DNA from: Candidatus Poribacteria bacterium
GTDB lineage: Bacteria; Poribacteria; WGA-4E; WGA-3G
NCBI GenBank assembly: GCA_965242965.1
Contig: OZ251518.1
Location: 3,513,838 to 3,577,837 of the forward strand
Direction of reading: 5' to 3'
Length of the DNA stretch: 64,000 bases
Of the stretch, positions 5,171-5,837 are shown piece by piece. Each line of letters opens with the position of its first letter. The stretch's first letter is position 1. Made by a program: the position numbers and the translations under genes. The notes beneath the pieces are model-generated. The model was not told the origin of the DNA. It saw only the letters and a list, made by a program, of their open reading frames with translations, and searched no databases.

Positions 5171-5629
5171 CTAGAGAATCTCGACAACAGCTCCTAGAAC
5201 TTCCAAGCGTTCCTTTATTTCCGCAGCGGCTTCGCGACTGATTCCCTCTTGGATAATGACAGGGGCAGATTCAACCTTTTCCTTTGCTTCCTTCAGGGAT
5301 AATCCGGTAATGTCACTAACGACGACAATCACGTCCGCCTTTTGATGGGATTTGCCTAAACTTTCTAGGGTAACCCCATATCCTTCGCGAGAGATCTCCT
5401 CTCTTTGGACGGTAGGACCTGTCGTTTCTCCTACGATAGGATCCCTCCTTTCTTCAGCATCCTTTTTTTCACTCGGGTGCTGCTGAAGTTTGTCCAAGCT
5501 TTGCGCAATTCTCCGAAGATCTTCCGCGATGCTCTTCAGATGCACCCGCATCCCATAGAGGCTGCTGACGATGAGGATAACGATAATGATATGGATAAGG
5601 ACGGCGATGAGATAGACTACTTCAACCAT
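5171..5629 (-). CDS. membrane-anchored protein with a ribosomal bL12 (L7/L12) C-terminal-domain-like module
   Basis: N-terminal hydrophobic helix [22 protein letters not shown]. C-terminus [54 protein letters not shown] closely matches the bL12 CTD consensus (...[50 protein letters not shown]). Its start overlaps the upstream DUF433 gene by 8 nt. Confidence 0.7.
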   Translation of the reverse strand: [152 protein letters not shown]

Positions 5630-5837
5630 TGCAATTTGCCTCCTTTCGTTGGGCTGCGAAACCGAGGGCGGCCCGAATACCTTCCTCAGTTAAGCGCGGA
5701 TGCGCCTCAAGCAGCTGCTCGAACGTTTCGCCGGCTGATAACTTCTCCAAAATTAATTCAACCGTAAGTCGCGTGCCGGCGATAACCGGCTTCCCCATCA
5801 TGATTGAGGGGTTGGATTGTATCAATTGAGTTGTCAT
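5622..5837 (-). CDS. DUF433-family small protein (antitoxin-like)
   Basis: MTTQLIQSNPSIMMGKPVIAGTRLTVELILEKLSAGETFEQLLEAHPRLTEEGIRAAL matches the DUF433 pattern. ATG at 5837 with GAGGT 7 nt upstream; the longer ORF to 5894 lacks an RBS. Confidence 0.7.
   Translation of the reverse strand: MTTQLIQSNPSIMMGKPVIAGTRLTVELILEKLSAGETFEQLLEAHPRLTEEGIRAALGFAAQRKEANCNG

What the first reader, a model, noticed from the sequence alone, without database searches (positions are those of the whole stretch)
5171..5837. DUF433 small protein translationally coupled to a membrane-anchored paralog of the ribosomal bL12 C-terminal domain
The 152-aa product of 5171-5629 has one N-terminal TM helix and a charged linker. 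Its C-terminal ~70 aa is strikingly similar to the L7/L12 CTD ([43 protein letters not shown]), the factor-binding domain of the ribosomal stalk. Its start overlaps by 8 nt the stop of a DUF433 gene. DUF433 proteins are usually antitoxin-like partners of PIN or other toxins. A membrane-tethered bL12-CTD mimic could sequester or recruit translational GTPases. I am not aware of this architecture being described.
Basis: partly seen in the sequence, partly recalled or inferred. Interest (0 to 1): 0.7.

Follow-up and report, generated by a model that had tools for sequence, protein, structure and literature searches.

The report
Membrane-tethered copy of ribosomal stalk domain
A sponge-symbiont lineage (Poribacteria) fused a copy of the factor-binding head of ribosomal stalk protein bL12 onto a small membrane protein; the neighbouring DUF433 antitoxin gene only overlaps it because a deletion removed the toxin gene that used to lie between them.

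Summary
5171-5629(-) encodes a 152-aa protein made of a TM helix, a heptad helix, a disordered charged linker and a bL12 C-terminal domain (Pfam E 4.9e-18; model matches 1ctf, TM 0.91). 5622-5837(-) is DUF433 (E 8.5e-22) and overlaps it by 8 nt.

The proposed DUF433 partnership is not supported. Close relatives carry ThiF/MoeB, DUF433, DUF5615 (a PIN-like toxin), a 104-bp gap, then the L12-like gene. The window lineage has a 483-bp deletion that removed the toxin and created the overlap. A more distant Poribacteria lineage has the L12-like gene directly after moeB, with no DUF433.

The gene seems to be a fusion of a conserved small TM/coiled-coil ORF downstream of moeB with a copy of the Poribacteria rplL CTD. 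In this allele, several residues of the GTPase-docking helix that are invariant in genuine Poribacteria bL12 are replaced (I66A, K70V, E71V, R73S). Two anciently diverged alleles of this face recombine in the population.

Non-ribosomal bL12-CTD proteins are numerous in metagenomes and are briefly noted in the literature.

Verdict: a real, narrowly distributed variant of a poorly characterised kind. Its function is untested, and faithful stalk mimicry is doubtful.

The parts
5171..5629 (-). L12-like gene (152 aa + stop): a membrane-anchored paralog of the bL12 C-terminal domain
   Evidence: ORF. Pfam PF00542 E 4.9e-18. Homologues P0001-P0011, P0044, P0046 and P0063. AF2 model and Foldseek hit to 1ctf.
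5549..5620 (-). Residues 4-27: single transmembrane helix, predicted N-out/C-in
   Evidence: 24 uncharged residues, mean KD 3.35. N-flank 'MVE' has 0 K/R; the C-flank has 4 K/R in 15 residues. The same charge bias is seen in types B and C and in the stand-alone small ORFs. Topology is inferred from the positive-inside rule and was not measured.
5483..5548 (-). Residues 28-49: juxtamembrane helix with heptad a/d pattern L31-I34-L38-I41-L45-L48 (probable coiled-coil oligomerisation module)
   Evidence: AF2 gives a continuous helix 2-49. Heptad spacing comes from the sequence. The motif is shared with the stand-alone small ORFs downstream of moeB. Oligomerisation is inferred.
5381..5482 (-). Residues 50-83: disordered, charged tether (6 K/R, 9 D/E, 11 P/G/S/T in 34 aa)
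   Evidence: pLDDT < 50 for residues 51-80. Composition. dN/dS about 0.7-1.4 within allele types.
5174..5380 (-). Residues 84-152: bL12 C-terminal-domain fold (beta1-alpha4-alpha5-beta2-alpha6-beta3)
   Evidence: Residue-by-residue comparison with 54 genuine Poribacteria bL12 CTDs.
5264..5482 (-). Approximate extent of the dimorphic 'cassette' (linker + beta1-alpha4-alpha5, about residues 50-122). The window carries allele type A; relatives carry a type B that is about 45% identical here.
   Evidence: L001 and L003 are 98.3-98.6% identical over 12 kb, except L001 6155-6378, which blastn cannot align. dS is saturated in this segment against 0.1-0.3 in the flanks. Different 3' breakpoints in L003/L004 and L088.
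5639..5645 (-). Shine-Dalgarno AAGGAGG of the L12-like gene, 9 nt before its ATG, now lying inside the 3' end of the DUF433 ORF
   Evidence: Sequence. The AAGGAG core is conserved in L001, L003 and L004, where there is no overlap.
5622..5837 (-). DUF433 gene (71 aa): an orphaned VapB-type antitoxin. Its last 8 codons (RKEANCNG) are read from the former upstream region of the L12-like gene.
   Evidence: Pfam PF04255 E 8.5e-22. Comparison with the 77-aa intact versions in L001, L003 and L004. dN/dS 0.15-0.47.
5648..5652 (.). Deletion junction with 3-bp microhomology CAA (5649-5651). 483 bp present in L001/L003 are missing: the DUF433 3' tail, all of DUF5615 and the intergenic hairpin.
   Evidence: DNA alignment A2, columns 253-735. 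The same junction is seen in AGPOR5 (L005) and in L088/L089.
5876..6682 (-). ThiF/MoeB-type adenylyltransferase. It is the conserved upstream neighbour of the L12-like gene in every lineage that has it.
   Evidence: Pfam ThiF E 1.3e-83. NCBIfam MoeB subfamily PRK05690 304 bits > 266. Synteny.
7021..7599 (-). 192-aa conserved Poribacteria hypothetical protein, always upstream of moeB
   Evidence: No Pfam hit and no informative fold match.
3802..4740 (-). 312-aa Xre-type HTH protein, a variable insert between the L12-like gene and the aminotransferase
   Evidence: Weak HTH hits. Present in the window, L004 and L005; absent from L001 and L003.
4957..5036 (.). Two tandem copies of a dispersed REP-like element downstream of the L12-like gene. 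One copy gives a terminator-like hairpin plus T-run on the minus strand (4975-4960).

Best explanation
SHOWN
- The 152-aa product is a real, lineage-restricted Poribacteria protein.
- It is built from an N-terminal TM helix, a heptad helix, a disordered linker of about 35 residues, and an intact bL12 C-terminal-domain fold.
- The domain derives from the Poribacteria's own rplL.
- The DUF433 gene belongs to a DUF433-DUF5615 (VapB/PIN-like) toxin-antitoxin cassette that was inserted between moeB and the L12-like gene. In the window lineage a 483-bp microhomology deletion removed the toxin and fused the antitoxin's 3' end onto the L12-like gene's ribosome-binding site and start codon. That deletion created the 8-nt overlap.
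- The L12-like gene keeps its own Shine-Dalgarno sequence. It pre-dates the cassette and is not its partner.

PROBABLE
- The N-terminal module is homologous to 43-62-aa TM/coiled-coil ORFs that sit alone downstream of moeB in other Poribacteria. If so, the gene arose by fusing a copy of the rplL CTD onto that small membrane protein.

INFERRED (mechanism)
- The protein sits N-out/C-in in the cytoplasmic membrane and oligomerises through the heptad helix.
- It swings its bL12-like head on a flexible tether in the cytoplasm. This is the same dimerisation-module, hinge and head layout as bL12, with the membrane replacing the ribosome.
- The head captures a cytoplasmic protein through the alpha4/alpha5 face.
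- That face has lost several residues that are invariant in genuine bL12, and it exists as two old alleles. I therefore think it now binds something other than, or much more weakly than, the canonical translational GTPases.
For: Domain and fold.

Topology and heptad pattern.

Origin from Poribacteria rplL:
- The best bL12 hits are all Poribacteria, at 58-64% identity.
- Over beta2-alpha6-beta3 the paralogs are 53-66% identical to Poribacteria bL12; E. coli bL12 is 49%.
- Type C member P0063 is 82% identical to Poribacteria bL12 over beta1-alpha5.

TA cassette and deletion:
- L001/L003 have ThiF, DUF433, DUF5615, then the L12-like gene.
- DUF5615 scores Pfam E 2.3e-25, with secondary PIN_10 and Mut7-C hits.
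- DUF433/PIN_10 is a described TA pair (PMC5499597).
- The same scar is in AGPOR5 and L088.
- L004 has an independent 323-bp deletion.
- Type C loci L085-L087 have ThiF, 47 bp, then the L12-like gene, with no DUF433.

Fusion origin:
- An HMM of the N-terminal module hits an uncalled 46-aa ORF immediately after moeB in L094 (E 2e-6 among 993 segments).
- It also hits two ORFs after moeB in L092 (E 2e-3 and 2e-2).
- Other Poribacteria lack the CTD at this site.

Constraint:
- Within-type dN/dS is 0.13-0.6 for the TM helix and CTD, and about 1 for the linker.
- ThiF is 0.02-0.15.

Eroded docking face: K65, I66, I69, K70, E71, V72, R73 and T76-P91 are invariant in 54 genuine Poribacteria bL12 CTDs, except position 89 (53 of 54 S). 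The window protein has A66, D67, V70, V71, S73 and S79. Helices 4 and 5 are the factor-binding region (titles of Kothe 2004 and Helgstrand 2007, cited in PMC3505967; PMC10931766).

Dimorphism and recombination.
Against: - No experiment or complex prediction bears on what the head binds.
- Helix 5 (L80-E88) is fully bL12-like in this allele, and the type C proteins keep nearly all docking residues. Residual GTPase binding therefore cannot be excluded.
- Overall dN/dS for window vs L001 is 0.64, and the gene's dN is about 20 times that of moeB. This is compatible with weak or fading function.
- The homology of the N-terminal module to the small ORFs rests on short sequences of about 40 aa. The position-specific context helps, but the E-values apply to small search spaces.
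- Topology is inferred from charge bias only.
- All loci are from one phylum with conserved synteny, so the moeB adjacency says little about function.
Confidence: 0.6

Rival explanations
1. First reader's model. DUF433 and the L12-like protein form a translationally coupled functional pair (antitoxin-like plus effector). The membrane-tethered head is a faithful bL12 mimic that sequesters or recruits EF-Tu, EF-G, IF2 or RF3 at the membrane.
For: - The 8-nt overlap is real and is shared by the window, AGPOR5 and L088/L089.
- The fold is that of bL12.
- Helix 5 and K65/I69 are retained in this allele, and type C proteins retain almost the whole docking face.
- The predicted cytoplasmic orientation fits.
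Against: - The overlap is a deletion scar.
- DUF433's own partner, DUF5615, is present in L001 and L003.
- The L12-like gene occurs without DUF433 in L085-L087.
- The L12-like gene keeps its own Shine-Dalgarno sequence.
- K70, E71, R73 and I66, invariant in genuine bL12, are replaced in type A. Helix 5 is rewritten in type B.
- There are no PADLOC hits.
Confidence: 0.15
2. Evolutionary by-product. A partial rplL duplicate landed behind a small membrane-protein gene and was read through. The CTD has no specific function and is drifting or decaying. Only the TM/coiled-coil module matters.
For: - Narrow and patchy distribution: one of 185,579 species representatives has a close full-length relative, and other Poribacteria have only the small ORF or nothing.
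- High dN/dS (0.5-0.64 for type A comparisons) and fast dN relative to moeB.
- Loss of residues that are invariant in bL12.
Against: - The reading frame is intact in every one of at least 14 clusters, across saturated dS (window vs L085 dS > 1.7 in moeB).
- The CTD fold is predicted with pLDDT 77-90.
- Within type B, the alpha4-alpha5 segment has dN/dS 0.13-0.15 and the C-terminal half 0.22.
- The C-terminal 30 residues are the best-conserved part even against type C.
Confidence: 0.2
3. Decoy or bait. The tethered head imitates the ribosomal stalk to intercept factors that exploit bL12 (stalk-dependent toxins, or phage proteins). The two old alleles of the binding face are kept by balancing selection in an arms race.
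For: - The divergent segment is exactly the ligand-binding face. It shows saturated dS between alleles in genomes that are 98.5% identical elsewhere, with several independent recombination breakpoints.
- The locus is a hotspot for TA cassettes and inserts.
- bL12 CTD modules are fused to TIR, KAP NTPase, PNP_UDP and kinase domains in other bacteria, and to a caspase homologue and vWA conflict proteins in the literature (PMC8283722; PMC7159879).
- Stalk-dependent effectors exist: Cami1 bound to the 70S ribosome, PDB 8phj, in which the bL12 chain W matches our model, and the MAP ribosome-inactivating protein (PMC12737465).
Against: - There is no direct evidence.
- There are no PADLOC or defence-family hits.
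- Two alleles with recombination can also arise by neutral introgression.
- No effector domain is linked to the protein.
Confidence: 0.08
4. The head is extracytoplasmic (N-in/C-out, or a cleaved signal), like the many signal-peptide or lipoprotein bL12-CTD repeat proteins. In that case it has nothing to do with translation factors.
For: 55 of 148 top-scoring non-ribosomal bL12-CTD proteins have an N-terminal hydrophobic segment. Many are classical signal peptides or lipoboxes, for example P0047, P0051, P0079 and P0152.
Against: - This family has no positive n-region: the N-flank is MVE, MTE or MD, with 0 K/R.
- The hydrophobic stretch is 21-26 residues long and has no AxA site.
- There are 3-5 K/R just after the helix in all members and in the stand-alone small ORFs.
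Confidence: 0.07

Closest known systems
Ribosomal protein bL12 (L7/L12, rplL)
   Same: The C-terminal 69 residues have the bL12 CTD fold (1ctf, TM 0.91, 45% identity). They are most similar to Poribacteria bL12 (about 60% identity). The overall logic of oligomerisation module, flexible hinge and globular head is the same.
   Different: There is no N-terminal dimerisation/uL10-binding domain (PF16320 absent; TIGR00855 scores 60.8 bits, below its 84.4 cut-off). A TM helix is present instead. The gene lies after moeB, not in an rplJL context. Invariant alpha4 residues are replaced. NCBI nevertheless names the type C homologue 'ribosomal protein L7/L12'.
Phage-encoded bL12-domain proteins (Mizuno et al. 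2019, PMC6375957)
   Same: Stand-alone or embedded bL12 CTD domains outside the ribosomal gene, acquired repeatedly. The authors suggest they provide interfaces for translation factors.
   Different: Those are phage genes, often within large polypeptides, and are reported to keep the uL11/EF-contact residues. This one is chromosomal, in a non-phage context, membrane-anchored, and has an eroded alpha4.
Non-ribosomal tandem bL12-CTD proteins and the 'L12/ClpS domain' inserts in conflict-system proteins (Kaur et al. 2020, PMC7159879)
   Same: The same Pfam domain is used as a module in non-ribosomal proteins. Some have N-terminal TM anchors without a positive n-region, like this one, for example P0135, P0186 and P0192.
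   Different: 146 of the 148 top-scoring proteins analysed carry 2-8 tandem copies, and some of them also carry enzymatic or repeat domains. This protein has a single copy on a small TM/coiled-coil protein and is confined to a Poribacteria subclade.
DUF433-PIN-like (VapBC-family; COG2442/PIN, DUF433-PIN_10) type II toxin-antitoxin modules
   Same: The upstream gene is a full DUF433 domain. In relatives it overlaps by 1-4 nt with a DUF5615 gene that also hits PIN_10 and Mut7-C (PMC5499597; PMC3834315).
   Different: In the window the toxin is deleted and the antitoxin has a replaced C-terminal tail. It is an orphan antitoxin, not a partner of the L12-like protein.
ClpS (N-degron adaptor; same superfamily fold)
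   Same: Shares the alpha/beta fold (Foldseek E 6.6e-4 to 1e-2).
   Different: Only 11-16% identity, against 45% for bL12. There is no ClpS Pfam hit. This protein is not a ClpS.

Membership tests
Pfam PF00542 Ribosomal_L12 C-terminal domain | Profile match above the gathering score over the full domain | tested here: met
   65.6 bits against a cut-off of 25.9, profile positions 3-66 of 67.
Ribosomal protein bL12 (TIGR00855 equivalog) | Full-length match including the N-terminal dimerisation/uL10-binding domain (PF16320) | tested here: not met
   60.8 bits, below the 84.4 cut-off. Only profile positions 56-124 are matched. The precomputed domains of P0001-P0011 lack PF16320, whereas the genuine Poribacteria bL12 hits have it.
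Ribosomal protein bL12 | Conservation of the alpha4/alpha5 translational-GTPase docking residues | tested here: not met
   I66A, P67D, K70V, E71V, R73S and G79S at positions invariant or nearly invariant (P67 53 of 54; the other five 54 of 54) in 54 genuine Poribacteria bL12 CTDs. Helix 5 is retained.
Ribosomal protein bL12 | Binding to uL10 on the ribosome, and binding to EF-Tu/EF-G/IF2/RF3 | not testable with these tools
   Needs biochemistry or complex modelling.
Pfam PF04255 DUF433 | Profile match above the gathering score | tested here: met
   77.2 bits against a cut-off of 23.6, profile positions 1-56 of 56.
Type II TA module DUF433 + PIN-like toxin | An adjacent, co-oriented toxin gene of the PIN/Mut7-C group | tested here: not met
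   Absent from the window because of the 483-bp deletion. Present in L001, L002 and L003 as DUF5615, with PIN_10 and Mut7-C sub-threshold hits.
   The L12-like gene occurs without DUF433 in L085-L087. In L001/L003 a DUF5615 gene lies between them. In L004 they are 134 bp apart.
Non-ribosomal bL12-CTD module proteins (phage and conflict-system examples) | A PF00542 domain without the bL12 NTD, in a non-ribosomal protein or context | tested here: met
   literature.
Non-ribosomal bL12-CTD module proteins | Tandem repetition of the domain or fusion to effector/sensor domains | tested here: not met
   A single CTD and no other Pfam domain. By contrast, 146 of 148 top library hits have 2-8 copies.
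ClpS | Sequence-family membership | tested here: not met
   No ClpS Pfam hit. The only similarity is at fold level, with 11-16% identity.
Known anti-phage defence systems (PADLOC) | A match to any defence-protein model | tested here: not met
   No hits for the L12-like, DUF433, DUF5615 or 192-aa proteins. The HTH protein gives only weak HTH hits.

The most novel reading that the evidence does not exclude
The tethered bL12 head is a stalk decoy. On this reading it is a membrane-anchored bait that intercepts phage- or toxin-encoded factors which normally dock on the ribosomal stalk. Its binding face would be kept as two ancient alleles by balancing selection. The many bL12-CTD modules fused to TIR, KAP-NTPase, caspase-like and PNP_UDP domains in other bacteria would be 'integrated decoys' of the same kind, meaning a general use of a ribosomal-stalk mimic as an immune sensor.
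Probability: 0.08. Interest if true: 0.8.

Novelty: new variant of a known kind. Interest (0 to 1): 0.4.

Why it matters
If the tethered head still engages translational GTPases, it would be a rare case of a cell placing a stalk-like recruiting module on the membrane.

If it has switched partners, it is a clean, datable example of gene birth. A ribosomal domain was copied onto a small membrane protein and its binding face was then re-specified, with two alleles still segregating.

More broadly, the search showed that non-ribosomal bL12-CTD modules are numerous, often tandem, often secreted or fused to immune-type domains, and essentially uncharacterised. Annotation pipelines call some of them 'ribosomal protein L7/L12', which is misleading.

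The DUF433 story is a useful caution. A tight gene overlap can be the scar of a recent deletion rather than evidence of an evolved partnership.

Tried and rejected
1. DUF433 + L12-like as a TA-like pair. Rejected by comparative loci.
2. Defence-system membership. PADLOC gave nothing. PHROGs gave only a weak hit (E 1.7e-3), probably TM-driven, to a 60-aa phage family of unknown function.
3. ClpS identity. Rejected; only the fold is shared.
4. The L12-like protein as a ThiF/MoeB substrate (ubiquitin-like). Rejected from the sequence: it is not a beta-grasp fold and has no C-terminal Gly-Gly (it ends VVEIL).
5. A silent second cassette or second copy in the window that could feed the A/B dimorphism. 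None was found by tblastn or HMM over all six frames.
6. Hypermutation (DGR-like) as the cause of the variable segment. Rejected because synonymous sites are saturated too, indels are present and breakpoints differ between loci, which points to recombination between old alleles.
8. Literature searches. 'DUF433 + DUF5615' returned no papers. A search for the specific bL12 residue numbers (V66, I69, K70, R73) returned nothing relevant. The residue-level importance of K70 and R73 therefore rests on my own recollection of Kothe 2004, Diaconu 2005 and Helgstrand 2007. Only the helix-level statement is supported by held text.
9. Detecting single-CTD TM proteins in other phyla. The one exhaustive profile search ranked multi-repeat proteins first, so this could not be assessed.
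Full report
OBSERVATION

On the minus strand, 5171-5629 encodes a 152-aa protein. 5622-5837 encodes a 71-aa protein when read from its ATG. The two ORFs overlap by 8 nt as ATGGTTGA.

- The C-terminal 66 residues of the 152-aa protein match the Ribosomal_L12 C-terminal domain (E 4.9e-18, 65.6 bits against a 25.9 cut-off).
- The 71-aa protein matches the full DUF433 profile (E 8.5e-22).
- All PDB sequence hits are bL12.
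- An AlphaFold2 model built on 14 family members shows one long helix (2-49), a low-confidence stretch (51-80) and a beta-alpha-alpha-beta-alpha-beta domain (84-151).
- That domain superposes on E. coli L7/L12 CTD 1ctf (TM-score 0.91, rmsd 1.2 A, 45% identity). ClpS structures come far behind.
- Residues 4-27 are uncharged and strongly hydrophobic. There is no K/R before them and four in the next 15 residues.

WHAT THE NEIGHBOURHOOD SAYS ABOUT DUF433

A search of 5.8 billion proteins found only 11 full-length clusters (49-93% identity, 151-161 aa, Pfam PF00542 only) plus a shorter, more distant set of about 135 aa. Every other hit was a genuine bL12 of Candidatus Poribacteria, matched over the CTD alone.

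Locus arrangements:
- Two contigs nearly identical to each other (L001, from a 5.27-Mb contig, and L003) have ThiF/MoeB, DUF433, DUF5615, a 104-bp gap, the L12-like gene, then a convergent aminotransferase.
- DUF5615 (Pfam E 2.3e-25) also gives sub-threshold PIN_10 and Mut7-C hits. DUF433 with PIN-like toxins is a recognised VapBC-type toxin-antitoxin pair (PMC5499597; PMC3834315).
- A DNA alignment shows that the window lacks 483 bp present in L001 and L003. The missing stretch covers the last 14 codons of DUF433, all of DUF5615 and the intergenic hairpin. The junction has a 3-bp CAA microhomology.
- As a result the DUF433 frame now runs through the L12-like gene's Shine-Dalgarno (AAGGAGG, 5639-5645) and start codon to a fortuitous TGA.
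- The same scar is present in the Poribacteria MAG AGPOR5 (L005) and in L088/L089.
- L004 lost most of DUF5615 by a different, 323-bp deletion and has no overlap.
- In the distant 135-aa homologues (type C; L085-L087) the gene follows ThiF after 47 bp. There is no DUF433 or DUF5615.

The TA cassette is therefore a later insertion between moeB and the L12-like gene. The toxin was then lost at least twice. The 'translational coupling' is a deletion scar and not an evolved partnership. The remaining DUF433 domain is intact and under moderate constraint (dN/dS 0.15-0.47, small counts). It is an orphan antitoxin.

WHERE THE GENE CAME FROM

The window is about 91% identical in DNA to AGPOR5 and about 94-95% to L088. 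Among 185,579 species representatives, only AGPOR5 has a close full-length relative. The 79 other loci kept were genuine Poribacteria rplL genes.

Evidence that the CTD derives from Poribacteria rplL:
- Over beta2-alpha6-beta3 the paralogs are 53-66% identical to Poribacteria bL12, whereas E. coli bL12 is 49%.
- Type C member P0063 is 82% identical to Poribacteria bL12 over beta1-alpha5.

I then sampled MoeB orthologues (79-91% protein identity) from other Poribacteria:
- The 192-aa gene and moeB are always together. The downstream site, however, carries an adh_short gene, other genes, or short ORFs, and no bL12 domain.
- An HMM of the family's N-terminal 46-58 residues hits an uncalled 46-aa ORF immediately after moeB in L094 (MFAFISFIVITTILIIIARLLRDIERSLYKIEKHLERNSEENRDKR; E 2e-6 among 993 six-frame segments).
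- It also hits two ORFs after moeB in L092 (E 2e-3 and 2e-2).
- These share the TM helix, the charge bias and the heptad '..L..I...L..IE.HLE' helix with the type C proteins.

The most economical reading is that a small TM/coiled-coil protein encoded downstream of moeB acquired a copy of the rplL CTD at its C-terminus in one Poribacteria subclade. The sequences are short, so I rate the homology as probable, not certain.

CONSTRAINT AND THE TWO ALLELES

In 54 distinct genuine Poribacteria bL12 CTDs, K65, I66, I69, K70, E71, V72, R73 and T76-P91 (E. coli numbering) are invariant, apart from position 89 (53 of 54 S).
- The window protein (type A) has A66, D67, V70, V71, S73 and S79. It keeps helix 5 (L80-E88) unchanged.
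- Type B keeps R73 but changes K70S and rewrites helix 5 (F80, R81, D82, E84...).
- Type C keeps nearly everything.

Helices 4 and 5 are the docking site for translational GTPases. This is supported by the titles of Kothe 2004 and Helgstrand 2007, listed in PMC3505967, and by PMC10931766. The importance of the individual residues K70 and R73 is from my own memory of that literature.

Over this segment even E. coli bL12 is closer to Poribacteria bL12 (69%) than types A (57-60%) or B (36-42%) are. The ancestral constraint has been lifted or redirected.

L001 (type A) and L003 (type B) are 98.3-98.6% identical over 12 kb, except for about 225 bp inside this gene that blastn cannot align. In that segment (linker plus beta1-alpha4-alpha5) dS is saturated. 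In the flanking TM and C-terminal parts dS is 0.1-0.3. The 3' breakpoint differs between L003/L004 and L088. Both alleles occur with and without the DUF5615 deletion. This indicates recombination between anciently diverged alleles and not hypermutation.

Selection measures:
- Within types, dN/dS is 0.13-0.3 for the TM helix and the type B CTD, 0.5-1.2 (few substitutions) for the type A CTD, and about 1 for the linker.
- ThiF is 0.02-0.15.
- Against type C, the gene's dN (0.63) is more than 20 times that of ThiF (0.028).

The gene is maintained but evolves fast.

THE WIDER CLASS

A profile search of 1.84 billion representative proteins gave 10,111 hits at E <= 1e-3, and this total includes genuine bL12. 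Among the top 150 listed hits, the only other full-length matches to the profile were P0002 and P0010; type C P0063 matched from profile position 20. I analysed 148 of the top hits:
- 146 carry 2-8 tandem bL12-CTD domains.
- 55 have an N-terminal hydrophobic segment. These include clear signal peptides and lipoboxes, and a few uncleaved anchors resembling this one.
- Larger members combine the domain with TIR + LRR, KAP NTPase, Ser/Thr kinase + FGE-sulfatase, PNP_UDP + pentapeptide, LRV/HEAT repeats or MopE repeats.

The literature notes bL12 domains in phage proteins (PMC6375957), an 'L12/ClpS domain' inserted in vWA components of conflict systems (PMC7159879) and one cyanobacterial orthocaspase (PMC8283722).

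The architecture is therefore a new variant of a known but functionally unexplored kind. NCBI names the type C homologue 'ribosomal protein L7/L12'. That name fails the bL12 membership test: there is no NTD, and the score is below the TIGR00855 cut-off.

MECHANISM

Shown:
- It is a conserved ORF with its own Shine-Dalgarno sequence.
- It has a TM helix, a heptad helix, a disordered acidic/basic tether and an intact bL12-type head.
- The CTD derives from Poribacteria rplL.
- It is independent of DUF433.

Inferred:
- N-out/C-in topology, from the positive-inside rule, consistently across the family.
- Oligomerisation through the L31-I34-L38-I41-L45-L48 heptad.
- A 'fishing-line' mode of action like that of bL12, with the membrane replacing the ribosome as the anchor.

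My best guess is that the alpha4/alpha5 face now binds a partner other than, or much more weakly than, the canonical GTPases. The reasons are the replaced residues and the two maintained alleles. I put about 0.35 on this last step. I put about 0.85 on the anatomy, on the CTD's origin from rplL and on the DUF433 deletion story.

Rivals, each with its test listed separately:
- A faithful GTPase-recruiting mimic.
- A drifting by-product with no specific function.
- A stalk decoy in a conflict.
- An extracytoplasmic head.

LIMITS

- All evidence is computational. No complex modelling was possible.
- All loci come from one phylum with strong synteny, so the moeB adjacency is weak functional evidence.
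- The dN/dS counts are small.
- Single-CTD membrane proteins in other phyla could not be surveyed, because multi-repeat proteins dominated the one exhaustive search.

Noticed in passing
window 4749-4763, 4957-5036, 7680-7762, 11313-11410, 12391-12535, 27730-27794, 29277-29403 and about 30 further sites: A dispersed REP-like intergenic element with palindromic core GAGACC-N4-GGTCTC followed by CTCCTAC. There are 45 matches to GGAGGTCTCTCCTAC (<= 2 mismatches) in 64 kb, against 0.04 expected. Copies often lie in tandem pairs at a 30-40-bp period. The element is also present in the related loci (short repeated blastn hits in L001, L003 and L004).
   Followed up: partly
window 11747-12301 and 58443-58593: A second, longer GC-rich repeat family (units of about 81-208 bp containing CGTAGGGCGAGGGCCTGTCCCTCGCC ... 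GCGGGGGACAGGCCCCCGCGCTACGG), present as tandem arrays at two distant sites.
   Followed up: no
window 36588-36904: An AT-rich tandem array of 62/124-bp units (5.1 or 2.6 copies, 93% match at period 124) abutting the end of the 723-aa ORF 36904-39075(-). Its nature was not examined.
   Followed up: no
window 3802-4740 (-); L004 6663-7481; L005 8495-9388: A 272-312-aa Xre-type HTH protein with a large unknown C-terminal region is present only in loci that have lost DUF5615 (window, L005, L004, probably L088). It is absent where the DUF433-DUF5615 pair is intact (L001, L003). DUF5615 was lost by two different deletions in this background, so the correlation may be more than linkage.
   Followed up: partly
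L094 3339-3479; L092 4349-4510, 4764-4952, 6618-6749: Small (43-62 aa) TM + heptad-helix ORFs downstream of moeB in other Poribacteria. One was not called by the gene finder, and L092 has three copies. They look like the ancestor of the N-terminal half of the L12-like protein and form an unannotated small-membrane-protein family.
   Followed up: partly
[not shown]
   Followed up: yes
L086 2884-3539; L091 1726-2687; L094 802-1514; L090/L091 382-1560: The region upstream of the 192-aa/moeB pair is also a hotspot in other Poribacteria. Different TA-like modules occupy the same site between a sulfite-reductase/TusA gene and the 192-aa gene: PIN_3 with a 78-aa partner, ParE-like, and Gp49/HigB-like with dnstrm_HI1420. 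IS605 OrfB/TnpB genes also occur there.
   Followed up: no
proteins P0047-P0194, e.g. P0068, P0104, P0106, P0110, P0089/P0096: A large, mostly unannotated population of proteins with 2-8 tandem bL12-CTD domains. Many are secreted or lipoproteins. Others are fused to KAP NTPase, PNP_UDP + pentapeptide, TIR + LRR, or kinase + FGE-sulfatase domains. This suggests a widespread non-ribosomal role for the domain.
   Followed up: partly
L001 5926-5965 (intergenic, deleted in the window): A GC-rich perfect hairpin (GACAGGCGCGC TTTGA GCGCGCGCTTGTC) lies between DUF5615 and the L12-like gene in the undeleted loci and in L004. A similar hairpin (GGTAGGCGCGCTTTGCAAGCGAGCCTACC) lies just downstream of the L12-like stop in the window (5107-5135). 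Their function (terminator or REP element) was not examined.
   Followed up: no
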